Positions 33,782 to 46,576 are shown, counted from the first letter of the stretch. The stretch: DNA of 64,000 nt from Candidatus Omnitrophota bacterium (GCA_016209275.1 JACQWM010000053.1:11235-75234), one strand, 5' to 3'. A program made the numbers and translations. Notes: generated from the sequence alone by a model not told the origin.

Positions 33782-34954
33782 GTGCCGCGCTCCGACGTGG
33801 CGGAGGCCATCCAGGCTTTGCAGCGCGTCCAGCGCGCTCGATGGCGCGGGGCGAGCGGCTCGCAACTGGCCATCACGCTCTTCTTGAGCCTGACGGTCGT
33901 GCCGGCACTCATCGGGAAACTCGTGATTCCGCTGGAGTGGTACGCCTTTCGATGCTGGGAAGTGATGGTGGATCAGCGGCCCGCTGGGGCCAGACCGGGA
34001 TGGTGGTATCCCAACCAGGTGCTGCAGAAGCTGGAGCACGACGATTTGGTGCCACGCACGCGGTATTCGAAGCCGCGGAATGTGGTGTGGTACACGGATG
34101 CGTACGGCTACCGGAATCGTCCGCGGCCGGGGAACGAGCCCATCGACATCGTGGTGATCGGTGATTCAGAAATCGTCGGCTCATCGATGACGCAGGACGA
34201 CATCCTTTCAGAGGTGTTGGAGCGCATGACCGGCCGCCCGGTGTACGCATATGCCCCGGCGTACTTCGGCAAATTCGTGGAGGATCCGCGGTTTCAACAG
34301 CGCCCGCCAAAGGTCGTCGTGTTTTCCTTCATGGAACGGTCCGTGGCTTGGCGGTTGGTACCCCTCGGCGTCCCATATCCTGGTCGCGTGCGGGTTGGCG
34401 GCCCACCGAACCCGTACAGGCTACTTCCGGCACGCGCGCAGATCGCGTGGGACAAGATTCGGAAGAAACCGTTTCTCGTTTCGCATCTGATCCGTCGAAT
34501 CACCGGGCGTCATCCTCTAGGGCTCTCGGTGATCAAGAGCAACCAGTCTGATATGTTTTTCTTCCGCGATGATCTTGCGGCGATCGGCTACCACCAGCAG
34601 CATCCAGAGGACATCGACAGGACCGTGCGGGTGATTCGCCAGTATCATCACGCCATGGCGATGCGGGGCGTACAGTTTCTCTTCGTGGGAAATCCGAGCA
34701 AGGAGATCGTCTATTGGGATTTGGTCCCGCCGGAATATCGGCGAGGCCTTCGCCCCCCGGATTTTTTCACGCAGCTGCTCCCCAAACTGGAAGCGGCTGG
34801 CGTGCCCACACTGGATTTGCGCCAGGTGTATCGCGAGGCTGGCGTGCCTCAGGGCGAACTCGTCTTTCACCTGGGGAATACACATTGGAATCCGCACGGC
34901 GTGCGCCTGGCGGCGAAGGCGATTGCGGAACGTCTTACCCCCTGGCTGGAATAG
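33782..34954 (+). CDS. membrane-anchored SGNH/GDSL-like partner of MBOAT (AlgX/AlgJ/DltD-like)
   Basis: Signal-anchor TM then IDIVVIGDSE (GDS block); adjacency to MBOAT. GTG start; the in-frame upstream region 33665-33781 has no stop but no canonical start. Confidence 0.45.
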   Translation: MPRSDVAEAIQALQRVQRARWRGASGSQLAITLFLSLTVVPALIGKLVIPLEWYAFRCWEVMVDQRPAGARPGWWYPNQVLQKLEHDDLVPRTRYSKPRNVVWYTDAYGYRNRPRPGNEPIDIVVIGDSEIVGSSMTQDDILSEVLERMTGRPVYAYAPAYFGKFVEDPRFQQRPPKVVVFSFMERSVAWRLVPLGVPYPGRVRVGGPPNPYRLLPARAQIAWDKIRKKPFLVSHLIRRITGRHPLGLSVIKSNQSDMFFFRDDLAAIGYHQQHPEDIDRTVRVIRQYHHAMAMRGVQFLFVGNPSKEIVYWDLVPPEYRRGLRPPDFFTQLLPKLEAAGVPTLDLRQVYREAGVPQGELVFHLGNTHWNPHGVRLAAKAIAERLTPWLE

Positions 34955-35016: not shown

Positions 35017-35409
35017 CTACGCCAGCGTCACTTCTCCGAGCAGGAGCGTGACCGTTTTCAGCAGCTCCATCGGCTCAAACGGCTTGGTCATGTAGGCATC
35101 GGCCCCGAAGGCATAGCCGCGCAATTGGTCGATGGGCTTATCCATGGCTGTCAACATCAGAATCGGCACTTCCCACGGATGGCACAGCTTCCGCAGCTGC
35201 TTGCACACTTCATACCCGGTGATATCGGGCAGCCGCAAATCCAAAATCACCAGGTCTGGCCGATGCTCCGCCACATAGCTCAGCGCCGGCTTGCCGGCGT
35301 GCTCGGCATGGACCTCGAACCCGGAAGATTCCAAGTGCCATTTCACCAAGCTCGCGAGCGACGTTTCATCCTCCACAATCAAAATCTGTTTGCGATGGGC
35401 CATCATCAC
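35017..35409 (-). CDS. single-domain response regulator (CheY-like receiver)
   Basis: ILIVEDE...LVILDLRLPDITG...FGADAYMTKP. Confidence 0.75.
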   Translation of the reverse strand: MMMAHRKQILIVEDETSLASLVKWHLESSGFEVHAEHAGKPALSYVAEHRPDLVILDLRLPDITGYEVCKQLRKLCHPWEVPILMLTAMDKPIDQLRGYAFGADAYMTKPFEPMELLKTVTLLLGEVTLA

Positions 35410-35801
35410 CGATGCGCCTCCTTCCCTTGAGAGAGCTTCGCCTCCACACTGCTCAAGAGCTCCTCCATGCTGACAGGCTTCGCCAGAAAGAAATTTCCCC
35501 CGATATAGCCGCCGGTGTCTCGCGCCTCCTCTTTCGAGACGACGGCGGTCAGAAAGACGATCGGGATGGCGTTCAGCGTGGCATGTTCCCGGAGCTGCGC
35601 GCCGATTGCCGCGCCATCCGCATCGGGCATGATGATATCCAGCAGGATCAGGTCCGGGTGAAACGCCTCGGCCTCGGCGAGCGCCCGCGCTCCCTCGTTG
35701 ACCTCTCGGACCTCATACCGGCCCGCTTGCTCCAGGTTCAACCGGAGCAGCCGCGTGAAACTTGGTTCGTCATCGATGATCAGGATCCGTTCTTTGCCCA
35801 T
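35406..35801 (-). CDS. single-domain response regulator (CheY-like receiver)
   Basis: ILIIDDE...LILLDIIMPDADG; overlaps the neighbouring gene. Confidence 0.75.
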   Translation of the reverse strand: MGKERILIIDDEPSFTRLLRLNLEQAGRYEVREVNEGARALAEAEAFHPDLILLDIIMPDADGAAIGAQLREHATLNAIPIVFLTAVVSKEEARDTGGYIGGNFFLAKPVSMEELLSSVEAKLSQGKEAHR

Positions 35802-38113
35802 CGGCCATCACCTCCTTCGTCATGATCGGCTTTCAGCACAATCGTTGCGCGCGCCCCGCCTTCCGGCCGGTTCTTCACCGTGATCATTCCGCCGTGCAAC
35901 CGGATGATCGTTTTGGTCACCGCCAGGCCCAGCCCGGTGCCCTTGCCGGTGGGCTTCGTCGTGAAAAAAGGATCGAAGAGCTTCAGCAGGTGGACATCGG
36001 GGATCCCCACCCCCGTGTCATCGACTTCGACCATGACTACGGCATCTCCCGCGGCAAACACGCCGGTGTCGCGATGCCCCACACCGTCGGAGGCCTCGGG
36101 CAACGTTGTCTGATACGTGCGGATGGACAGCGTGCCTCCCTCAGGCATCGCATCGATGCTATTCATGAAGAGGTTGACGAAGACTTGCTCGAGTTTGGTC
36201 TGATCGCGCCTCACCATCGGCAGGCGCGGCTCAAAAGAGGTCGCCACGCGGACATGCTGCTTGTCCAGCGCATGCCGGACCAGGAGCAGGGCCTGTTCAA
36301 TAGTGGCATTGAGGTCGCCGGCCTCCAGGTTTACCTCAGTCGGCGCGGAGAAATCCAGCAATCCTTTAATGACCCGATCCGCCCGCCAGGCGGCTTGGTT
36401 CAAATCCTGCAGGACGACGCCGACATGCGGCCCGTTGCCCTGCACGTGTCGTGAGAGATAGTCGATGCCCATCACCATAATCGCGAGCGGATTTTTCACC
36501 TCATGCGCCACGCCGGCGGCCAGGCGGCCGACGGATTCGAACTTCGCCGCTTGAATCAATCGCAACTGGGCTTCTTGCAGCTCCTGGTTCGCTCGCCGAT
36601 ACTTGGCCAGCGTTTGCAATAATTCCTCCTGCTGCTCCTTGAGCAATGTGTTGGTTTGCTCCAGCTGGATGGCCGCGCGCTTGCGTTCCGTGATATCGCG
36701 GATAATGGCGGTGACGAATCGTCCTTCCTGGGTCATCCAGCTCGCCAGGGATAATTCCAGCGGAAATTCCATCCCATTCTTTCGTTGGCCGGCCAGCTCG
36801 ATGGTTCTCCCCATGACCCGGGCTTCCCCCGTCTTCAGAAACCGGTTGAAGCCTTGTTGATGCGCCTCATGGAATCGCTGCGGCATCAGCAGGGTCAGCG
36901 GCTGGCCCAGCGCCTCCTGCGGCGCATACCCAAACATCGCTTCAGCGCCCTTGTTCCATGCGATCATGTTCCCCGCGTGATCGGCAGAAATGATGGCATC
37001 TTGCGCGGATTCCACGACCGCCCGCAACCGTTCTTCGCTGGTGCGCAGCGCATGCTGGATGAGCTTGCGTTCGGTGATATCGAGGAGGACGTAGACCGTT
37101 CCGGCCCGAGTCCCCCGCGGATCCATGATGGTGGCGGCCGAGACGCTCACGTCGACTGGTTCCCCAGGCTTGGTTCGGCAGACCATCTCGCGATCCCGAA
37201 TGATGGCTTGCTCGGTGAGATGCGCCATGGGCATGGCGCGTTCAAGCGACGTTTCAAACAGCCTGGTAATCGGCTGGCCGATGAGTTCAGCAGGCGAGTA
37301 GCCCAGCAGTTCACTGACGGCGCGATTGGCGACGCGGACGTCGCCCTCCATATCGACGACGAGGACGCCTCCGTTCATCGTCTCCAAAATTTGGCTCGTT
37401 GCAAACTGCGGTGTCAGATCGACGAGCCGGTACCGCCAAATCGCCCGCGCGACCAGGCCGAGGAAGATCAGCACTGGCACATACCCGAACGGGTAGGCTG
37501 GGAGCCCAAATTTGGCCAGATAATCCCAGGTGCCGAGATAGAGAATGCCGAACGCGCCCAAAAATGTCCGGCTGCGTTGCCACCGCGCCGTGCCTGGTCG
37601 CGCCTGGCGGTATTCCACCCAATACAACCGCAGGCTCATGACGAGCATGCCGAAGAAAAAGGTCAAGTAGGAGACGCTGAGCCATCCATACCGCGGGTAA
37701 TAGCCCCACCGGTACTGATAGAGCCCGCCAATCAGGGCATCGGTGCTGACGATGGCTGAGGCAAACGACACCGCGAGGAACCAACCGAGCCAAAGGATCA
37801 CCCGGTTTTCTCGATACATCCCCAACGAGACGGCGGCAAAATGGCTGACGGCGACCGGGATGAGCGGAATGGTGAGATACGCAGTTTTCGCCCACCACAA
37901 GGCCATGTCGACATCAGCCGCGCCATACATGTGGGAAAACGCGAAGAGCCACCAGCCGATCGTCGCGCTCATCAGCAGAAACAGCAGGCTGACGACGGAG
38001 GCGCGTTCGCGAATGACGACCGCCAACGCCAACCCGAAGGCGGCGAACGCGGTCAGGCTTGTGGCAGCAGCCAGAGGTTGATCCATAGTGTCAGCCAACA
38101 AAAGACCCTTCAC
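35780..38113 (-). CDS. hybrid-architecture sensor histidine kinase: N-terminal multi-TM sensor + 3 PAS + HisKA + HATPase_c
   Basis: ~8 TM N-terminal; PAS repeats; H-box AHEVKNPL; G-box GTGLGLAV. Confidence 0.8.
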   Translation of the reverse strand: MKGLLLADTMDQPLAAATSLTAFAAFGLALAVVIRERASVVSLLFLLMSATIGWWLFAFSHMYGAADVDMALWWAKTAYLTIPLIPVAVSHFAAVSLGMYRENRVILWLGWFLAVSFASAIVSTDALIGGLYQYRWGYYPRYGWLSVSYLTFFFGMLVMSLRLYWVEYRQARPGTARWQRSRTFLGAFGILYLGTWDYLAKFGLPAYPFGYVPVLIFLGLVARAIWRYRLVDLTPQFATSQILETMNGGVLVVDMEGDVRVANRAVSELLGYSPAELIGQPITRLFETSLERAMPMAHLTEQAIIRDREMVCRTKPGEPVDVSVSAATIMDPRGTRAGTVYVLLDITERKLIQHALRTSEERLRAVVESAQDAIISADHAGNMIAWNKGAEAMFGYAPQEALGQPLTLLMPQRFHEAHQQGFNRFLKTGEARVMGRTIELAGQRKNGMEFPLELSLASWMTQEGRFVTAIIRDITERKRAAIQLEQTNTLLKEQQEELLQTLAKYRRANQELQEAQLRLIQAAKFESVGRLAAGVAHEVKNPLAIMVMGIDYLSRHVQGNGPHVGVVLQDLNQAAWRADRVIKGLLDFSAPTEVNLEAGDLNATIEQALLLVRHALDKQHVRVATSFEPRLPMVRRDQTKLEQVFVNLFMNSIDAMPEGGTLSIRTYQTTLPEASDGVGHRDTGVFAAGDAVVMVEVDDTGVGIPDVHLLKLFDPFFTTKPTGKGTGLGLAVTKTIIRLHGGMITVKNRPEGGARATIVLKADHDEGGDGRWAKNGS

Positions 38114-38303
38114 CTCAATGAAGCGAAGGGCATCGCCGACGCTGTCTTCGGCAACCCAGCTGCCCTGTCGCTTCTTGAAGTGCGGGCCTATGGTTTTGCG
38201 TCCCCGGTTTTCGCGGGGTTTGCTCGTTCGGACAGGTCGTGCACGATAACTACATGTTCTATATCATATTTTTTGCCTTCGTTTCAAGGTATACTCTAGA
38301 TTT

Positions 38304-41300
38304 ATGCCCACAGCATACTGTTCAGCGTTTTCGGTAGACCATCCCCGGTTGGTCATTGGCCTGACCGCTGTGATCACGCTGCTCTTCGGCGCGCAGTTTT
38401 CGAAGATCACCGTCGACACGGACCCCAAGCACATGCTCCCCGCGACCTCACCGGTGCGGCAGTACAACGACCAGGTCGAGCGGGAGTTTGTCCTGCATCC
38501 GGATGTCATCGTGCTGGGCATCGTCACCCCACCACCTGCAGCAGCGCCAGGCGTGATCAATCCGCGCACGCTCAAGACGGTCGCGGAGCTGACCCGCGCT
38601 ATTCAGCGGATTCCTGGGGTCATCTCGCGTGACGTGGACAGCCTGACCAGCGTGGACAACGTGACTTCAGTGAATGGCGAGCTCGTCGTCAAACCCGCCG
38701 TGGGAGACATTCCGCAATCTGAGCGAGAGCTGCTCCAACTTCGGGAGTCATTGCTTGGCAATCCCCTGTTAGTCAACCGTCTGATATCGGCTGATGCCAC
38801 CGCTACGGCGATCTTCATCCCCATTGAACCCACGGCGAATGGCAAGGTGGTGGCGGACAAGATCCGCGCCCTGCTTCCGAAAGCGCCAGACGGTGAGCAG
38901 TTTTACCTTGCCGGCGATCCGGTGGCCCGCGACACCTTCGGCGCCGAGATGTTTCGGCAGATGGCCCTCTTTTCGCCGATCGCCGGGATGGTCATGTGCG
39001 TGGCCCTCTGGCTGATGTTCCGCAGCGGGACGGTGATTTTGGCGAACATGAGTGTGGCGATGATCAGCATCATCTGGAGCCTGGGCGGCTTGATCGGGTT
39101 AGGGTATCCCGTGCACATCATGAGCTCCATGAGCCCGGTCTTTCTGATGGCGATCGCCACGGATGCGGTCCACATCTTTAACGAGTTTGCTTTTCAAGTT
39201 CGAGAGATCAAGGACAAGCGCCGAGCCGTCTTGGAAACGATGGCGGTGGTCGGGGGGCCGGTGTTCTACTCCGATGTCACGACGGCGGTGGGCTTCGCCG
39301 CGCTGGCTAGCGGCGCCATTATTCCAGTCAAGATCTTCGGCCTCGTCGTGGGCTTCGGCACCATGGTCATTCTGCTCATGAGCTACACCCTCGTACCGGC
39401 GCTCCTCATGCTGATGTCGAATGAACGCATGACGAAGATGACGCGGCCACAGACGGCAACGAGCCGTTCGTCGTTTCAGTGGCTATCACGCCTGGGCGAG
39501 TTCTGCGTGCGCAGGACGAAGGCGATTCTCTTGGCAGGCCTGGGATTGTTCGTCGTGGCCGCAATCGGTCTGGCGCGCATTCATGTCAACAACAACATGG
39601 TGCACTGGTTCAAGTTCCACAGCGTCGTGAGGACGGCCGACCGGGTGCTGAATGAGCGCTTAGGAGGCACGTCAACCGCCTATCTGGTCGTGCAAGCACG
39701 CACAGAGGGAGCGATGGGAGAGCCGGCGATGCTGCGCCAGATTGAGGGCCTCCAACGGGAGCTGGAGCGCGATCCCTTGGTTGGCAACACCCTCTCCGTC
39801 GCCGATTACCTCAAGCGGGTCAATCGAGTGCTGCACGATGACGATGCGGCCTTCGAGCGCATCGCGGCGTCCGCCCGCGAGGCCGGCCAATACCTGTTCC
39901 TCTTGCAGTCCGCCGCCAAACCGCGCCACCTTGATAACGTCGTCGATTTCTCGCTCCAGCAGGCGAACATCCTCCTCCAACTGAAAAGCTGGGATGCCGG
40001 GGTGATGGAACAGGTGATGGCTCGCACACAGGCGTACCTGGCTCAGCATCCCCTCCCTGATGAGGCCATCGTGAAACCCGCCGGCATCGCCTACTTCAAC
40101 ATGGTCTGGAACCATGAAGTGCTCTGGGGGATGCTCATGAGCTTCCTCTGGGGGCTCGCACTGGTCTTTATCCTCTTGATGATTGAAACCCGGTCGTTCT
40201 TCTGGGGGATCGTGAGCTTCCTGCCGCTGTTATTCACGATCGCCGTGATCTACGGGGTCGTCGGGTTCATCGGCAAGGATTTCGACATGCCGGTGGCGGT
40301 CCTCTCCACGCTCTCCCTCGGCATGGCCATTGATTTCGCGATCCACTTTGTCGGCCGCTTCCAGCAACGGTACCGGGAGCAGCCGGATCTTTCGGCGGCG
40401 CTCGTCTGGACCGTGACTCGACCGGGGAAGGGCATTTTTCTCAATGCGATCCTGTTTGCGCTGGGGTTTGCCGTGATGGCCTTCGCGGACCTCACCCCGT
40501 ACATCACCGTGGGCGTCTTCATGGCGGCGATCATGGTTCTCTCTTCGGTCATGAGCGTCATCTACCTGCCGGCGTTGATCCAGCTGTTGAAGCGCGTGTT
40601 GCTCAAAGGGGGTGGGATGAAACCTGTCACGTCGATGCTGCTGGTGCTGTTGCTGTCTGCTGGCGTGTGGAGGCCTCGCGCGGCTCAGGCCGCCGAACCC
40701 CCTAGCGGTCGCTCCATCATGGAGCAGACGCTCCTCGCCTACTACTACTCAGGCAAGGATGCCAAGGAAGAGGTGCTCATGCGGATCGTGAACCGCCAGG
40801 GTCAGGCACGGAAACGCCGCCTGACGCTGTTGCGCAGGGATCAGACCGACGGGGGCGAGCAGTCCTATTACCTTTACTTTCATGAGCCCGCCGATGTGGA
40901 GGGGATGAGCTTCCTCGTCGAAAAGCACCCAGGGCGGGATGATGACCGCTGGCTCTATCTGCCGGCTATTGATTTGGTCAAACGGATCGCCACGTCTGAC
41001 AAGCGCACCAGCTTCGCCGGCTCCGATTTCACCTACGAGGATGTGTCCGGCCGGGATCTTGACGAGGATGCGCATGAGGTCGTGGGCGAGGAAGCGCTCG
41101 GCGAGCATGCCGCGTTCGTGGTCAAGAGCACGCCAAAACGTCCAGAGGGGGTGGAGTTTAGCTACCGCAAATTTTGGATCGACAAGGCCACGCACCTGCC
41201 GCTGAAGGTGGAGCATTACGATCTTCAGGGCGCGCTGTACAAGGTCTACGAGACGCAGGAGATCCAGACGATCCAAGGCACGCCCACGATCACGAAGGCG

Positions 41301-41432
41301 GTGATGAAGGATCTGGGAAACGCGCGGTTCACGGAGATGGCGCTGCACGCGGTGTCCTACGACATGGGACTCTCAGCCGATGTCTTTCAAGAACGCAGCC
41401 TGCGCAGGCCGCCGGCGCAGTGGATCCGCTAG
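38304..41432 (+). CDS. MMPL/RND-superfamily exporter fused in-frame to a C-terminal LolA-like (outer-membrane lipoprotein-sorting-like) periplasmic domain
   Basis: 12-TM MMPL topology with two large periplasmic loops (~780 aa); then a signal-peptide-like hydrophobic segment MKPVTSMLLVLLLSAGVWRPRAAQA and a ~250-aa soluble domain resembling LolA-like proteins; single uninterrupted ORF. Confidence 0.65.
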   Translation: MPTAYCSAFSVDHPRLVIGLTAVITLLFGAQFSKITVDTDPKHMLPATSPVRQYNDQVEREFVLHPDVIVLGIVTPPPAAAPGVINPRTLKTVAELTRAIQRIPGVISRDVDSLTSVDNVTSVNGELVVKPAVGDIPQSERELLQLRESLLGNPLLVNRLISADATATAIFIPIEPTANGKVVADKIRALLPKAPDGEQFYLAGDPVARDTFGAEMFRQMALFSPIAGMVMCVALWLMFRSGTVILANMSVAMISIIWSLGGLIGLGYPVHIMSSMSPVFLMAIATDAVHIFNEFAFQVREIKDKRRAVLETMAVVGGPVFYSDVTTAVGFAALASGAIIPVKIFGLVVGFGTMVILLMSYTLVPALLMLMSNERMTKMTRPQTATSRSSFQWLSRLGEFCVRRTKAILLAGLGLFVVAAIGLARIHVNNNMVHWFKFHSVVRTADRVLNERLGGTSTAYLVVQARTEGAMGEPAMLRQIEGLQRELERDPLVGNTLSVADYLKRVNRVLHDDDAAFERIAASAREAGQYLFLLQSAAKPRHLDNVVDFSLQQANILLQLKSWDAGVMEQVMARTQAYLAQHPLPDEAIVKPAGIAYFNMVWNHEVLWGMLMSFLWGLALVFILLMIETRSFFWGIVSFLPLLFTIAVIYGVVGFIGKDFDMPVAVLSTLSLGMAIDFAIHFVGRFQQRYREQPDLSAALVWTVTRPGKGIFLNAILFALGFAVMAFADLTPYITVGVFMAAIMVLSSVMSVIYLPALIQLLKRVLLKGGGMKPVTSMLLVLLLSAGVWRPRAAQAAEPPSGRSIMEQTLLAYYYSGKDAKEEVLMRIVNRQGQARKRRLTLLRRDQTDGGEQSYYLYFHEPADVEGMSFLVEKHPGRDDDRWLYLPAIDLVKRIATSDKRTSFAGSDFTYEDVSGRDLDEDAHEVVGEEALGEHAAFVVKSTPKRPEGVEFSYRKFWIDKATHLPLKVEHYDLQGALYKVYETQEIQTIQGTPTITKAVMKDLGNARFTEMALHAVSYDMGLSADVFQERSLRRPPAQWIR

Positions 41433-42726
41433 GAGGTCCATCGTCGTCGGCGCTGGCCTCGCCGCTGTTGGGCTCTGGCTGTTCCCAGCACGCGTGCGGG
41501 CCGGCGGACAGCTCCCAGATCTCCACGGGTTTGTCGAAGCGGTCTATGGCCCGAAGTTCCTCGGGGATGAGCGCACGCAGAAGGACGAGTTCAACGTCTT
41601 GGAGCAGCGCTTTCAATTAAAAGCCGCCTGGCGGCCGCCCCGCTCAGCACCGTTGGCCTCGTGGAACCCTGAAGTTTTCTACAAAGGGGATCTGGTCGTT
41701 GATGAGTACGACGAAGCCCTCCGCTACAAGATCCGTGAGGCGCATGTCTCGGCCAGCCCCTTGGCTTGGCTGGATGTCAAGCTGGGCCGGCAGATTCTCA
41801 CCTGGGGAACCGGCGATCTGCTCTTCATCAACGATGTCTTTCCGAAAGATTTTGTCTCCTTCTTTATCGGCAGGGATGATGAATATCTCAAGATGCCTTC
41901 TGATGCGGCGAAGCTCTCTTTCTTTAGTCCCTGGGCTTCGCTCGATCTGATCCTCATCCCCTTCTTTACGCCTGACACCCCCATCACCGGCAACGGCTTA
42001 AGCTTCTTTGACAGCCTCCTTGGCCGTCTGGCCGGGAAGGAGTCGAATCGCCTGTTAACGGAGCCATCGTTCCAGCCGAAGAACACCGAGATCGCCGGTC
42101 GGGTCAGCCGAATCATTGGCGGCTATGAAGTCGCCGGGTATGCGTTCCGAGGATTCTTCAAGCAAGCCATGGGCATCAAGAACCAGGATGCCCGGGAGCT
42201 GTTCTATCCGGAGCTTGCGGTCTACGGGGCGAGCCTCCGGGGCCCTGTTCCAGCGATTGGCGGCATCACCTATGGCGAGATCGGCTACGACGACTCGCTG
42301 GAGGATCGCAGCGGCAAGAACCGCCTGATTGAAAATGCCTTGATGAAATACCTCGCAGGCTATGAGCGCGATTTTCCAAACGATCTTCGCATTGGGCTCC
42401 AATATTACGTCGAGCAGATGCTGGACTTCGATCAGTTCACGGCCGGCTTCCTGCCCGGGGATGTGCCGCGTGATCAGTTCCGAGAACTTGTGACGTGTCG
42501 GATCACCAAGCTGTTCTGGATGCAGACGCTTGAGGCCTCTTTCTTCGTCTTGTACTCACCGACCGACGAGGACGCGCACCTGCGCCCCCGGCTGACGTGG
42601 CAGGTCAATGATCAGTGGAAGGCCACCATCGGGGCCAACGTCTTCTTCGGCACGCATGACTGGACCGAGTTCGGGCAGCTTGAAGATAACGATAATCTGT
42701 ATGTGAGAGTGCGGTACAGTTTCTGA
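41380..42726 (+). CDS. DUF1302-like putative outer-membrane beta-barrel protein
   Basis: Signal peptide; beta-rich; C-terminal ...YVRVRYSF (terminal Phe typical of OMPs); partner of the RND/LolA-like gene. Confidence 0.5.
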   Translation: MSFKNAACAGRRRSGSARRSIVVGAGLAAVGLWLFPARVRAGGQLPDLHGFVEAVYGPKFLGDERTQKDEFNVLEQRFQLKAAWRPPRSAPLASWNPEVFYKGDLVVDEYDEALRYKIREAHVSASPLAWLDVKLGRQILTWGTGDLLFINDVFPKDFVSFFIGRDDEYLKMPSDAAKLSFFSPWASLDLILIPFFTPDTPITGNGLSFFDSLLGRLAGKESNRLLTEPSFQPKNTEIAGRVSRIIGGYEVAGYAFRGFFKQAMGIKNQDARELFYPELAVYGASLRGPVPAIGGITYGEIGYDDSLEDRSGKNRLIENALMKYLAGYERDFPNDLRIGLQYYVEQMLDFDQFTAGFLPGDVPRDQFRELVTCRITKLFWMQTLEASFFVLYSPTDEDAHLRPRLTWQVNDQWKATIGANVFFGTHDWTEFGQLEDNDNLYVRVRYSF

Positions 42727-43286: not shown

Positions 43287-43301
43287 GAGAGGGTGGGACT
43301 G

Positions 43302-44342
<1,041 letters not shown>

Positions 44343-44364
44343 GGTAAGGGTAGGTAGTAAGTAA

Positions 44365-44390
44365 GGTGACAGTCACTTTTGGGGACAGGC
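44365..44390. repeat. REP-like palindrome GGTGACAGTCAC + GGGGAC flanking the RAYT 3' end
   Basis: GGTGAC-A-GTCAC perfect palindrome followed by GGGGACAGGC. Confidence 0.6.
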
Positions 44391-44990
44391 ATTTTTGGCT
44401 GGGCGGCGCTGGAACAAATAGGCCGGTCCTCCGATGGCCGTGGCGGCGCTGAAGATGAACCTCGCGGTCTCGGAGGAATAGTCGATGGCAGACAGCGAGG
44501 GCGGGAGTGCTGGCGGCAGATAGGGATCGAGCAGCTCGTCGGGAACCCCAAGATGGTAATGCCGGTAGCTACTGTGCGGGTAAGCCGCCGGTTCCTTGCA
44601 GAGGCCTGCCCGAATAGGGTTGAACTCCACGTACGTTCCGCACGCGGTAAGATACTCCTCACTTTCGATCGGCAAACTTTTGTATCGTTCCCTCCAGAGC
44701 GGGCCTTTCCATCCATATTTCCTACGCATCCAAATCGTGTACCTCCACTTGAGCTGGGCCAGGTGCGCTGAGAGGGCGTGTTGGGTTGTCGCCTGAAGGA
44801 CGAAGTGGAAGTGCGTGTGCATGATCACGTAGTGAAACAGGCGGAGGGGAAAGTCGCGTTTCGCCTGCTGCTGCAGCTTGCGGAAGCGGGAGAAGTCTTC
44901 AGGGTCCCTGAAGATATGGGTTTGATTGATGGAACGAGAGATGACGTGGTAGTACCCGTTGTCCTGAATGAATCGGGCAGTTCGTGGCAT
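44373..44990 (-). CDS. REP-associated tyrosine transposase (RAYT; IS200/IS605-like HUH Y1 transposase)
   Basis: YHVISRS..., HUH motif HTHFHFVL, catalytic Tyr region; flanked by palindromic REP-like sequences. Confidence 0.75.
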   Translation of the reverse strand: MPRTARFIQDNGYYHVISRSINQTHIFRDPEDFSRFRKLQQQAKRDFPLRLFHYVIMHTHFHFVLQATTQHALSAHLAQLKWRYTIWMRRKYGWKGPLWRERYKSLPIESEEYLTACGTYVEFNPIRAGLCKEPAAYPHSSYRHYHLGVPDELLDPYLPPALPPSLSAIDYSSETARFIFSAATAIGGPAYLFQRRPAKNACPQK

Positions 44991-45010
44991 CCGGTCCTCA
45001 ACTCGATGTC

Positions 45011-45047
45011 TGTCCCCGGCGGTGACTGTCACCAGTGGGGACGGCCG
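45011..45047. repeat. REP-like palindrome GTCCCCggcGGTGACTGTCACCagtGGGGAC flanking the RAYT 5' end
   Basis: GGTGAC-T-GTCACC core with CCCC/GGGG outer arms. Confidence 0.6.
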
Positions 45048-45052
45048 TTTCC

Positions 45053-46576
45053 TTACCAAAGTTGACGATCGAGGCTGCGATACTGGATCGCTTCGGCCAG
45101 ATGCTCAGGGAGAATCTCCTCCGACGCGGCCAGATCCGCGATCGTCCGGGCGATTTTAAGGAGCTTGCCGTAGGAGCGGGCCGAGACCCCCAGCTCCTGC
45201 AGCGCGGATTTCAGCAGCGCGGCAGCCTGCAGGCTGAGCGGGCAGGCGTTCGCCAAGTCGCGGTGGCGCAGCTGCGCGTTGCAGGCCACGCCAAGCGGTC
45301 TCAAGCGCTTCCGGGCTCGCCGCCTCGCGGCCACCACGCGCGCCTTGATCGCTTGCGATGATTCTCCGTCGGCCGGATGCGTGAGCGTCTCAAACCGCAC
45401 CGCCGGCACTTCCACGTGCAGGTCGATGCGATCCAGCAGCGGGCCGGAAATCTTCGCCAGGTACTGCGCCACTTTGTGGGACGGGCAGCGGCACCGCCGC
45501 CTGGGATCGGTGAGGTAGCCGCACGGACACGGATTCATCGCGGCCACGAGCAGAAACCGCGCGGGAAAGGTGACTGAGCGTTTCGCGCGCGCGACGCTGA
45601 TCACGCCGTCCTCGAGCGGCTGCCGCAAACTCTCCAAGGCGTCTCGATGGAACTCCGGCAGCTCATCCAGAAACAAGACTCCATGGTGCGCGAGCGACAC
45701 TTCGCCGGGCTTGGGGGTCGCCCCGCCGCCGACCAGGGCCACGGCCGAGGTGGTATGATGCGGCGCGCGGAACGGCCGCTGCGCGATGAGCGGCGCCTCA
45801 TGCAGCAACCCCGCCACGCTGTGAATCGCGGTGGCTTCCAACGCCTCATCCAGCGAGAGGTCCGGCTCGATGGTGGCCATGCGCTGGGCGAGCATGGTCT
45901 TGCCGGAGCCGGGCGGGCCGATCAGCAGCGCATGATGGCCGCCGGCCACGGCGACTTCCAACGCGCGCTTGACGTGCGCCTGGCCGCGGACATCGGCGAA
46001 ATCGACCGGATAGCGTGCGGGCGCGCGGAGCGCTCGGCGTGACGCTGAAGGCGCTGGGGCAGCGGCACTCGGCGCGGAGAGCCAGGCGACCGCCTCGGTC
46101 AGCGACGCCACCGGCACGACGTGAAGGCCGCCGATGAGGCGGGCTTCTTGGGCATTGGCCCTCGGCACCATCAACGGCCGTCGGTTGTGGCGCAGTGCCA
46201 GCGCAATCGGCAAGACTCCGGGCACGGCGCGCACGCTGCCATCCAACGCGAGCTCTCCCATCGCCATCAGCGAGGCCACCCGATGAGGATCGGCTTGCCC
46301 TGTGGCCGCAAGCATCCCTAAGGCCATCGCCAAATCAAAAATGCCGCCCTCCTTTTTGACATCCGCCGGGGCGAGGTTGATGGTGAGCCTTGAAGAGGGC
46401 AGCTGATATTGGCTATTGAGGATGGCCGCGCGGATGCGCTCTTTGGCTTCTTTCACCGCCTGATCCGGCAAACCGATGATGGAGAAAGTGGGCAGCCCGC
46501 GCGCGGCATCGACCTCCACGTCGACCGCAACGGCGTGCAAGCCCAGTGTCGTATACGATGTGGTGCGCGCGAGCAT
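45053..46576 (-). CDS. comM: YifB/ComM-family Mg-chelatase-like AAA+ ATPase
   Basis: N-terminal Lon-like domain; Walker A GPPGSGKT; Zn-ribbon-like CPCGY...CRC. Confidence 0.85.
   Translation of the reverse strand: MLARTTSYTTLGLHAVAVDVEVDAARGLPTFSIIGLPDQAVKEAKERIRAAILNSQYQLPSSRLTINLAPADVKKEGGIFDLAMALGMLAATGQADPHRVASLMAMGELALDGSVRAVPGVLPIALALRHNRRPLMVPRANAQEARLIGGLHVVPVASLTEAVAWLSAPSAAAPAPSASRRALRAPARYPVDFADVRGQAHVKRALEVAVAGGHHALLIGPPGSGKTMLAQRMATIEPDLSLDEALEATAIHSVAGLLHEAPLIAQRPFRAPHHTTSAVALVGGGATPKPGEVSLAHHGVLFLDELPEFHRDALESLRQPLEDGVISVARAKRSVTFPARFLLVAAMNPCPCGYLTDPRRRCRCPSHKVAQYLAKISGPLLDRIDLHVEVPAVRFETLTHPADGESSQAIKARVVAARRRARKRLRPLGVACNAQLRHRDLANACPLSLQAAALLKSALQELGVSARSYGKLLKIARTIADLAASEEILPEHLAEAIQYRSLDRQLW

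What the first reader, a model, noticed from the sequence alone, without database searches (positions are those of the whole stretch)
38304..42726. MMPL/RND exporter fused in-frame to a LolA-like periplasmic domain via a signal-peptide-like 13th TM, followed by a DUF1302-like outer-membrane barrel
The 1042-aa ORF has a complete 12-TM MMPL transporter (to ~aa 780). It then continues without a stop into MKPVTSMLLVLLLSAGVWRPRAAQA-AEPP (a Sec-signal-like segment) and a ~250-aa soluble LolA-like domain. The next gene (41380-42726, overlapping) is a signal-peptide protein ending ...VRVRYSF, like OM beta-barrels of the DUF1302 family. RND + LolA-like + DUF1302 triads are recurrent but functionally unassigned putative lipid/lipoprotein exporters. 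A covalent fusion would place the lipid-carrier-like domain in the periplasm, tethered to the pump. Alternatively the internal ATG marks an independently translated nested gene, or a stop codon was lost.
Basis: partly seen in the sequence, partly recalled or inferred. Interest (0 to 1): 0.7.

Follow-up and report, generated by a model that had tools for sequence, protein, structure and literature searches.

The report
Pump and carrier genes fused in-frame
Two neighbouring genes of a three-part envelope export system (an inner-membrane pump and its periplasmic lipid-carrier-like partner) have become one reading frame here through a net 2-base loss, a fusion that recurs in other bacteria and probably does not change the mature proteins.

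Summary
Window 38304-41432 is one 1042-aa ORF made of a 12-TM MMPL/HAE3 RND transporter plus a full LolA_like domain (PF17131). It overlaps by 53 nt a 448-aa gene for an 18-strand outer-membrane barrel related to DUF1302.

The fusion is specific to this lineage. All 17 closest relatives examined (Omnitrophota metagenome genomes and contigs) have two genes. Eleven of them join the genes by an ATGA stop/start overlap with a Shine-Dalgarno inside the pump's last codons. The window is net 2 nt shorter there (GGTG-TCAC-ATGA becomes GGTG-GG-ATGA), so the pump frame runs into the carrier's own start codon.

The "13th TM" is the carrier's native Sec signal peptide: a hydrophobic core of about 14 residues followed by AQA|AE. 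I expect signal-peptidase cleavage, internal initiation at the retained ATG, or both, giving the same mature proteins as in relatives.

The fused architecture is not new. At least 54 of 144 sampled 50%-identity clusters carry it, and one case is published (Thalassolituus TOL_3187). A rough tree needs at least 13 fusion/fission switches.

An assembly error cannot be excluded without reads. The substrate is unknown. Interest is modest.

The parts
38304..40616 (+). MMPL/HAE3-type RND transporter portion (aa 1-771): 12 TM helices and two periplasmic domains, with conserved Asp motifs in TM4 (AIATDAVHIF) and TM10 (GMAIDFAIHF)
   Evidence: Pfam MMPL E 5e-33. TIGR00921 HAE3 E 1.6e-55, below its cut-off. 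AF2 helices. Foldseek matches to MmpL4/5/3 and HpnN, TMt 0.6-0.79. The 768-aa orthologs end here.
40605..40620 (+). Fusion junction AAAGGGGGTGGG-ATGA. It holds the remnant Shine-Dalgarno (AGGGGG), the former ATGA stop/start overlap (now out of register) and the site of the net 2-nt loss (TCAC to GG at 40614-40616)
   Evidence: Alignments with L001, L002, L003, L022 and L023.
40617..40691 (+). Ancestral start codon and Sec signal peptide of the LolA-like protein (aa 772-796, MKPVTSMLLVLLLSAGVWRPRAAQA). The predicted signal-peptidase I site lies between A796 and A797
   Evidence: Stand-alone 271-aa orthologs start at this Met with 100% coverage. The hydrophobic core is about 14 aa. pLDDT is below 50. 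A-x-A retention statistics.
40692..41432 (+). Mature periplasmic LolA-like (PF17131 / TP_0789-like) domain, aa 797-1042, plus the stop codon
   Evidence: Pfam PF17131 E 1.3e-58, full model length. PDB sequence matches 9tp6 (E 1e-33), 4z48 and 3bk5. Confident beta-rich fold.
41380..42726 (+). Outer-membrane 18-strand beta-barrel related to DUF1302, with a signal peptide of about aa 1-41 (..PARVRA|GG). It overlaps the preceding gene by 53 nt
38114..38321 (+). Non-syntenic 5' region: an AT-rich leader and the first 6 or so codons of the pump gene, which replace the ArsR-family regulator (and, in L001/L003, a 190-aa membrane protein) found upstream in relatives
   Evidence: Homology to L001 and L002 begins near 38322. 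ArsR is conserved upstream in relatives and has no homolog in the window.

Best explanation
This is the three-gene envelope system typical of Omnitrophota. It consists of an HAE3/MMPL RND transporter in the inner membrane, a Sec-exported LolA-like carrier in the periplasm and an 18-strand DUF1302-related barrel in the outer membrane.

By analogy with HAE3 systems, it is inferred to move a hydrophobic or amphiphilic molecule from the inner membrane to or across the outer membrane, driven by the proton gradient. That is inferred, not shown.

In relatives the first two genes are translationally coupled. The pump's TGA stop overlaps the carrier's ATG (ATGA), and a GGAGG lies inside the pump's last codons. 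In this genome a net 2-nt loss just before the ATG (TCAC to GG) puts the ATG in the pump's frame and removes the stop from it. That yields one 1042-aa ORF. This step is shown.

The pump's C-terminus is cytoplasmic, so the carrier's signal peptide still enters the membrane N-in/C-out. It should be cut by signal peptidase I after AQA796. The carrier can also still be made separately from the retained ATG, which keeps an SD-like AGGGGG upstream. Either route gives the same mature soluble carrier as in relatives, plus a pump carrying a tail of about 28 residues. The fusion would therefore be a near-neutral polyprotein form, not a new tethered machine. These processing steps are inferred.
For: **The window is fused and its relatives are split.**
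- The ORF and its domains are confirmed.
- All hits at 65-89% identity are about 768 aa.
- The junction DNA of 17 relatives is split. Eleven have the ATGA overlap and the rest have spacers of 26-125 nt.
- Stand-alone 271-aa carriers begin at the same Met.

**The linker looks like a signal peptide.**
- The h-region is about 14 aa and is followed by AQA|AE.
- The AF2 model gives no confident 13th TM.

**The fused form is viable and recurs.**
- Clades at about 50% identity are fused: P0065, P0101, P0105, P0108, P0114 and P0118. They occur in independent samples and each is followed by a 374-430-aa protein with no Pfam hit, presumed to be the barrel homolog.
- 54 of 144 sampled 50%-identity clusters are fused, and a rough tree needs at least 13 fused/split switches.

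**Fused junctions keep a cleavage-type site.**
- Strict A-x-A occurs in 31 of 46 fused junctions and in 36 of 61 genuine stand-alone signal peptides. After uncleaved TM1 it occurs in 10 of 46, and after TM7 in 14 of 46.
- Many fused proteins lack an internal Met.

**The genes are under selection and the assembly looks sound.**
- Selection on the window branch is not relaxed: N/S is 9/27, 3/12 and 7/31, similar to relatives.
- Five other 4-nt gene overlaps in the window are intact, so there is no sign of systematic indel errors.

**Function by analogy.** AmeABCD (PMC6394551), the DUF1302/DUF1329/RND cofitness cluster (bioRxiv 072470) and TOL_3187/3188, induced on n-C28 (PMC6304351).
Against: - No reads are available, so the 2-nt difference in a G-rich stretch cannot be verified.
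- The exact fused protein is not in the protein collection.
- The fused junction is absent from JGI metagenome contigs.
- Nobody has shown cleavage of an internal signal peptide for any member of this family. The A-x-A enrichment is indirect evidence.
- The SD-to-ATG spacing is shortened to about 4 nt, and termination-reinitiation coupling is lost, so carrier output could be altered.
- The substrate and the direction of transport are unknown.
- The barrel matches DUF1302 only at its C-terminus.
Confidence: 0.55

Rival explanations
1. Sequencing or assembly artefact. The genome really has two genes with an ATGA-type overlap, and two bases were lost in the G-rich run GGGGGTGGG (40608-40616).
For: - All 17 close relatives are split.
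- Adding one G to each G-run would restore an in-frame TGA overlapping the ATG (read directly).
- The fused junction was not found in an independent collection.
Against: - The difference from relatives is TCAC to GG. That is not a simple homopolymer length change of any observed relative sequence.
- The rest of the window keeps long ORFs and at least five intact 4-nt overlaps.
- All three genes are otherwise intact and conserved.
- Genuine fusions at this junction are common elsewhere.
Confidence: 0.22
2. A true, stable tethered fusion. The signal-peptide-like segment stays uncleaved as a 13th TM helix and holds the LolA-like domain at the pump's periplasmic face.
For: - The topology is compatible (N-in after TM12).
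- Stable fused clades exist, many without an internal Met.
- Tethering could favour substrate hand-over.
Against: - The hydrophobic core is only about 14 residues and has positive charges right after it.
- A canonical AQA|A site is present, and such sites are retained across fused clades at the frequency of real signal peptides.
- AF2 places no confident helix against the TM bundle.
Confidence: 0.15
3. A decaying operon. The fusion is one of several lesions in a locus that is losing function, alongside the loss of the ArsR regulator and upstream gene and the replaced 5' end.
For: The 5' end of the pump gene and its upstream regulator have been replaced. Mobile-element genes lie nearby.
Against: - There are no internal stops or frameshifts in 4.4 kb.
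- Lineage-specific N/S counts are as low as in relatives.
- All motifs, signal peptides and the 53-nt overlap are intact.
Confidence: 0.05

Closest known systems
Thalassolituus oleivorans TOL_3187 / TOL_3188 (PMC6304351)
   Same: TOL_3187 is described as a single protein with two MMPL domains plus a LolA-like domain. The gene immediately after it encodes a porin-like protein without conserved domains. That is the same fused architecture and the same gene order.
   Different: It comes from a gammaproteobacterium, and both proteins are induced on n-C28 alkane (42-fold for TOL_3187). I did not compare the sequences directly. In the window the fusion is a recent event specific to the lineage, inside a clade that is otherwise split.
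AmeABCD of Castellaniella defragrans (HAE3 RND AmeD + DUF1329/LolA-superfamily AmeB + DUF1302 AmeA + COG4447 AmeC; PMC6394551), and the DUF1302/DUF1329/BNR/RND cofitness cluster (bioRxiv 072470)
   Same: An HAE3-type RND pump is combined with a periplasmic LolA-superfamily protein and a DUF1302-type outer-membrane protein. The inferred role is efflux or export of hydrophobic compounds.
   Different: - The window has three components, not four. No COG4447/BNR gene lies in the operon.
- The carrier is PF17131 (about 245 aa when mature), not the larger DUF1329 (about 450 aa).
- The barrel is 448 aa against about 600 aa and matches only the C-terminus of DUF1302.
- The gene order is reversed: here the pump comes first.
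HpnN hopanoid transporter and mycobacterial MmpL3/4/5 (PDB 5khn, 9gi0, 8zkp)
   Same: Same 12-TM RND fold with two periplasmic domains, and an Asp in TM4 and in TM10. These are lipid or amphiphile exporters driven by the proton gradient.
   Different: Sequence identity is only 13-17%. NCBIfam HpnN and MmpL3 scores are far below their cut-offs. None of these has a fused or adjacent LolA-like carrier or a dedicated barrel.
Bradyrhizobium japonicum FbcH cytochrome b-c1 polyprotein (from memory: Thony-Meyer et al. 1991, PNAS)
   Same: A polytopic membrane protein with a cytoplasmic C-terminus is fused in-frame to a periplasmic partner through that partner's signal peptide. Signal peptidase cleaves the precursor into two proteins.
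   Different: The protein families are unrelated. Cleavage is demonstrated experimentally there and only inferred here.
LolA/LolB of the LolCDE lipoprotein pathway
   Same: The half-barrel with lid fold class, shared at the level of the LolA superfamily.
   Different: There is no LolA or LolB family match and no LolCDE partner. The partner here is an RND pump, and the cargo is probably not a lipoprotein.

Membership tests
RND superfamily, MMPL/HAE3 branch | 12 TM helices with large periplasmic loops between TM1-2 and TM7-8 | tested here: met
   AF2 model helices and two alpha/beta periplasmic domains. Foldseek matches to MmpL4/5/3 and HpnN, TMt up to 0.79. Pfam MMPL E 5e-33.
RND superfamily, MMPL/HAE3 branch | Charged proton-relay residues in TM4 and TM10 | tested here: met
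   Asp in AIATDAVHIF (TM4) and in GMAIDFAIHF (TM10). Both are conserved in P0001-P0006, P0065 and P0105. Their function was not tested.
NCBIfam TIGR00921 HAE3 subfamily / HpnN equivalog | Score above the curated cut-off | tested here: not met
   TIGR00921 scores 188.5 bits against a cut-off of 351.9. HpnN NF052374 scores 54 against 1100. HAE3 is the best match, but this is a distinct subfamily.
LolA_like / TP_0789-like (PF17131) | Full-length match above the gathering score | tested here: met
   198.2 bits against a cut-off of 30, model positions 1-184 of 184. PDB homologs 9tp6, 4z48 and 3bk5.
Genuine LolA/LolB lipoprotein chaperones | LolA/LolB family match and a LolCDE partner | tested here: not met
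   No LolA or LolB model is among the NCBIfam hits. The neighbours are an RND pump and a barrel, not LolCDE.
DUF1302 (PF06980) outer-membrane proteins | Pfam match above the gathering score over the domain | tested here: inconclusive
   39.1 bits against a cut-off of 23.2, but only model positions 493-541 of 541 are matched. Many orthologs carry a precomputed PF06980 hit. The protein is about 150 aa shorter than typical DUF1302 members.
Outer-membrane beta-barrel | Signal peptide, closed antiparallel barrel, C-terminal aromatic residue | tested here: met
AmeABCD-type four-component HAE3 cassette | COG4447/BNR beta-propeller protein encoded in the cassette | tested here: not met
   The operon is pump-carrier, then barrel, then TrmO. 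Upstream lies a divergent histidine kinase. The syntenic loci L001 and L002 also lack a propeller gene. The rest of the window was not scanned.
Fused MMPL-LolA_like proteins (architecture class) | A single ORF spanning TM12, a signal-like linker and the LolA_like domain, conserved among orthologs | tested here: inconclusive
   The single ORF is present, but it is not conserved among the 17 nearest relatives. On a rough tree the window is an isolated fused tip inside a split clade.
Signal-peptidase-processed polyprotein | Cleavage at the internal signal peptide | not testable with these tools
   Only indirect evidence is available: an AQA|AE site, a short h-region and A-x-A retention in fused clades.

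The most novel reading that the evidence does not exclude
Fused MMPL-LolA_like proteins, this one included, are polyprotein precursors. Signal peptidase cuts them at an internal signal peptide that has been kept by selection, so pump and carrier are made 1:1 and the carrier is released right beside its pump.

The evidence for this is the repeated gain and loss of the fusion (at least 13 switches) together with retention of the cleavage motif. If true, it would be a widespread and so far undescribed biogenesis mode for an RND system. The only analogue I know is the Bradyrhizobium cytochrome b-c1 FbcH precursor.
Probability: 0.35. Interest if true: 0.55.

Novelty: new member of a known kind. Interest (0 to 1): 0.3.

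Why it matters
- **A clean natural example of gene fusion.** Two translationally coupled genes that share an ATGA overlap sit one small indel away from fusing. Here the before and after states can be seen in close relatives.
- **The fusion may not be what it seems.** The signal-peptide linker suggests the fusion may exist only at the level of translation. That is a caution against reading such ORFs as tethered multidomain machines.
- **An uncharacterised family.** The pump + LolA-like carrier + barrel family is very common in uncultivated phyla, with thousands of homologs, and its substrate is unknown. Fused members offer a simple experimental handle: is there one band or two, and does a signal-peptidase inhibitor change that?
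- **Limited reach.** For this window alone the consequence is small.

Tried and rejected
- **Exact look-up of the fused protein** in the assembly collection: not on record.
- **Scan of JGI metagenome contigs** for the fused junction with a degenerate 32-nt pattern: no match. No independent confirmation was obtained.
- **Genome collection:** the window's own genome is not among the species representatives. The best loci are 86-90% identical.
- **Scar hypothesis.** L002 carries a 122-nt perfect-hairpin element at the junction (z = -8.8). A GGTG-microhomology deletion of such an element would give exactly the window's GGTGGGATGA.
  - For: four-taxon informative sites mildly favour window+L002 (96 against 71 and 69).
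  - Against: the element has no other copy in the window or in any locus. The signal-peptide DNA just 3' of the ATG resembles L001 and L022, not L002.
  - Verdict: kept as an unproven idea (about 0.3-0.4), not a conclusion.
- **Link to the nearby transposase.** The Y1_Tnp (IS200/RAYT-like) genes of the window and of L002 are only 59% identical. No inverted repeats were found around the window copy. No link was established.
- **Promoter and terminator scans** of the operon showed nothing above the shuffled expectation.
- **The afdb50 fold library** was not available.
- **Literature searches** for TP0789, HAE3+LolA and MMPL+LolA gave nothing beyond the Thalassolituus and Castellaniella papers.
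- **Pseudogene decay** was rejected because lineage-specific N/S counts match those of relatives.


Full report
**1. What is in the sequence**

Window 38304-41432 (+) is one uninterrupted 1042-aa ORF. A 448-aa ORF at 41380-42726 (+) overlaps it by 53 nt.

Pfam finds MMPL in the first about 770 residues. It finds a complete LolA_like domain (PF17131, 1-184 of 184 positions, E 1.3e-58) at aa 851-1035. The best NCBIfam match is the HAE3 subfamily TIGR00921, but it is below the curated cut-off. HpnN and MmpL3 models score far below theirs.

An AlphaFold2 model built on 71 sequences (pLDDT 80) shows the standard RND layout. TM1 is followed by a periplasmic domain and TM2-6, then TM7, a second periplasmic domain and TM8-12, ending at residue 768. 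A short low-confidence helix follows (773-785; residues 769-797 have pLDDT below 50), then a confident beta-rich domain. Foldseek matches the transporter part to MmpL4/5/3, HpnN and NPC1 (TMt up to 0.79). No solved structure covers the fused C-terminal domain.

The carrier part has sequence relatives among solved stand-alone "outer membrane lipoprotein-sorting" proteins of unknown function: 9tp6, 4z48 and 3bk5.

**2. The junction**

The DNA reads CTC AAA GGG GGT GGG ATG AAA CCT..., with the ATG at 40617. The protein reads ...LLKGGG-MKPVTSMLLVLLLSAGVWRPRAAQA-AEPP.

The hydrophobic core is only about 14 residues (V775-W789) and fails a 19-residue TM hydropathy scan that finds the other TM helices. 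An A-Q-A motif follows it. This is the anatomy of a cleavable Sec signal peptide, not of a membrane anchor.

**3. Relatives: split nearby, fused further away**

A search of 5.8 billion proteins with the whole ORF returned about 768-aa proteins covering 73% of the query for every listed hit at 65-89% identity. Most are from Omnitrophota metagenome genomes. Six hits at about 50% identity are 1033-1037 aa and cover 99%.

The carrier part alone finds stand-alone 271-aa proteins at 83-89% identity that begin at the same Met and cover 100%.

I read the junction DNA in 17 relatives: L001/L004, L002, L003, L005-L016, L022 and L023. None is fused.
- In eleven, the pump's TGA overlaps the carrier's ATG (ATGA).
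- The others have 26-125 nt between the two genes.
- In the Omnitrophota relatives a GGAGG-like Shine-Dalgarno sits in the pump's last codons or in the short spacer before the ATG.

The closest relatives read ...GGTG TCAC ATGA (L003, L022, L023) or ...GGTA TTAC ATGA (L001). The window reads ...GGTG GG ATGA. That net loss of 2 nt puts the ATG in the pump's frame and takes the TGA out of it. The fusion is thus a frame change at a 4-nt overlap.

The locus is otherwise syntenic with L001 and L002: pump, carrier, barrel, TrmO and ComM.

**4. Real or artefact?**

I cannot see reads. The exact protein is not on record. The fused junction is absent from JGI metagenome contigs. The window's genome is not among the species representatives. 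The stretch is G-rich, and adding one G to each run would recreate an ATGA overlap.

Several points argue against an artefact:
- The change from the relatives (TCAC to GG) is not a homopolymer length error of any observed sequence.
- The window keeps at least five other 4-nt gene overlaps and long ORFs.
- The three genes show lineage-specific nonsynonymous/synonymous counts (9/27, 3/12, 7/31) like those of relatives.

I put the artefact at about 0.2.

**5. Origin**

The change is complex and sits on a short branch, so a single event is more likely than three. L002 carries a 122-nt perfect-hairpin element inserted exactly at the ATGA, with the ATGA duplicated. Deleting it between GGTG microhomologies would produce exactly the window's GGTGGGATGA.

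Informative sites mildly group the window with L002, and do so strongly within the carrier gene. However, the element has no other copies, and the signal-peptide DNA next to the junction is not L002-like. This remains a hypothesis.

**6. The fused architecture elsewhere**

An exhaustive HMMER search of 1.84 billion cluster representatives used a 393-aa query spanning TM9-12, the junction and the carrier. About 40 of the best 150 hits are proteins of about 1000-1160 aa aligned across the junction.

A local re-analysis classed 54 of 144 representatives as fused. A rough neighbour-joining tree of the carrier domain needs at least 13 fused/split switches, with the window as an isolated fused tip inside a split clade. 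The tree is crude, and some singletons may be errors.

The fused clade at about 50% identity occurs in independent samples (L019, L020, L021). Each copy is followed by a 374-430-aa protein with no Pfam hit, presumably the barrel.

The literature already reports such a protein. Thalassolituus oleivorans TOL_3187 has two MMPL domains plus a LolA-like domain and is 42-fold induced on n-C28. It is followed by the porin-like TOL_3188 (PMC6304351).

**7. Processing**

Nearly all 46 full-length fused representatives keep three features after TM12: a basic linker, a short hydrophobic core and a small-x-small motif followed by an acidic or polar residue. Many have no internal Met, so they are true fusions.

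A strict A-x-A motif within 25 residues of the core occurs in:
- 31 of 46 fused junctions;
- 36 of 61 genuine stand-alone carrier signal peptides;
- 10 of 46 cases after TM1 and 14 of 46 after TM7 of the same proteins.

The RND C-terminus is cytoplasmic, which is established topology for RND pumps. The signal peptide therefore has its normal N-in orientation. I infer that the fused precursors are cut by signal peptidase I, here between A796 and A797, releasing the usual soluble carrier.

The Bradyrhizobium FbcH cytochrome b-c1 polyprotein is a precedent; I cite it from memory. In the window the carrier may also be translated on its own from ATG 40617. That codon keeps an AGGGGG SD-like element, although its spacing is shortened to about 4 nt.

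**8. Function**

What is shown is the parts list, the tight coupling of the three genes (ATGA overlap, and a 53-nt overlap conserved in L002, L022 and L023) and the conserved Asp residues in TM4 and TM10.

What is inferred from HpnN, the MmpL transporters and AmeABCD (PMC6394551; bioRxiv 072470) is the mechanism. The pump would extract a hydrophobic molecule using the proton gradient, hand it to the LolA-like cavity, and the carrier would deliver it to the barrel. The substrate is unknown.

**9. Comparison and verdict**

The system is a three-component relative of the AmeABCD / DUF1302-DUF1329-BNR-RND cassettes. It has no propeller protein, a smaller PF17131 carrier and a shorter barrel.

The fusion adds a new, probably recent instance of an architecture that is already catalogued and has been published once. 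It is worth recording as an example of how such fusions arise and as a pointer to the polyprotein question. It is not a new kind of system.

Noticed in passing
window 38114-38321, compared with L001:5086-6018 and L002:1-146: Synteny with relatives starts only at about codon 7 of the pump gene. Relatives have an ArsR-family (HTH_5) regulator immediately upstream, and L001/L003 also have a 190-aa membrane protein there. The ArsR is conserved in L003, L006, L008, L009, L013-L015 and in the fused clade L019-L021. The window has no ArsR homolog anywhere in its 64 kb and instead has an AT-rich leader.
   Followed up: partly
window 35017-38113 (-): Divergent from the operon lies a 777-aa histidine kinase (7TM sensor region, PAS domains, HisKA and HATPase) followed by two receiver-only response regulators with no output domain. 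This could be the replacement regulator of the operon, or it could be unrelated.
   Followed up: no
window 43293-45059: An SBF/ACR3-like permease (43293-44342, +) and an IS200/RAYT-like Y1 transposase (44373-45059, -) lie between TrmO and ComM. L001 has neither. L002 has a Y1_Tnp at the same place, but it is only 59% identical, against about 85% for the flanking genes.
   Followed up: partly
L002:2436-2557: A 122-nt element with perfect 15-16-nt terminal inverted repeats and a very stable fold (-48.5 kcal/mol, z = -8.8) is inserted exactly at the pump/carrier ATGA overlap, with the ATGA duplicated. Both genes stay intact. No other copy was found in any fetched sequence.
   Followed up: partly
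L019:1766-4860, L020:1943-4947, L021:33-2246: In the stable fused clade the operon is preceded by DsrE, DsrE, DsrH, a Pyr_redox_2 flavoprotein, an ArsR-type HTH_5 regulator and a DrsE_2 protein. This hints at a link to sulfur or persulfide handling, and possibly at a hydrophobic sulfur species as cargo. It is speculative.
   Followed up: no
window 41380-41432; L002:3321-3373; L022:1462-1514; L023:855-907: The barrel gene starts 53 nt inside the carrier gene in all close relatives. ATG 41380 is the only in-frame start that keeps the barrel's signal peptide. The gene call for L001 (414 aa) is probably too short, because the upstream ATG gives 447 aa.
   Followed up: yes
window 33782-34954 (+): A 390-aa ORF has an AlgX-type SGNH-hydrolase-like domain (PF16822, E 6e-18), the kind of domain found in polysaccharide O-acetylation proteins. 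It lies upstream of the two-component genes.
   Followed up: no
operon alignment of the window with L001, L002 and L003: Support at informative sites switches between partners along the operon. The window groups with L002 in the carrier gene and with L001 in parts of the barrel gene. This suggests recombination among these Omnitrophota lineages.
   Followed up: no
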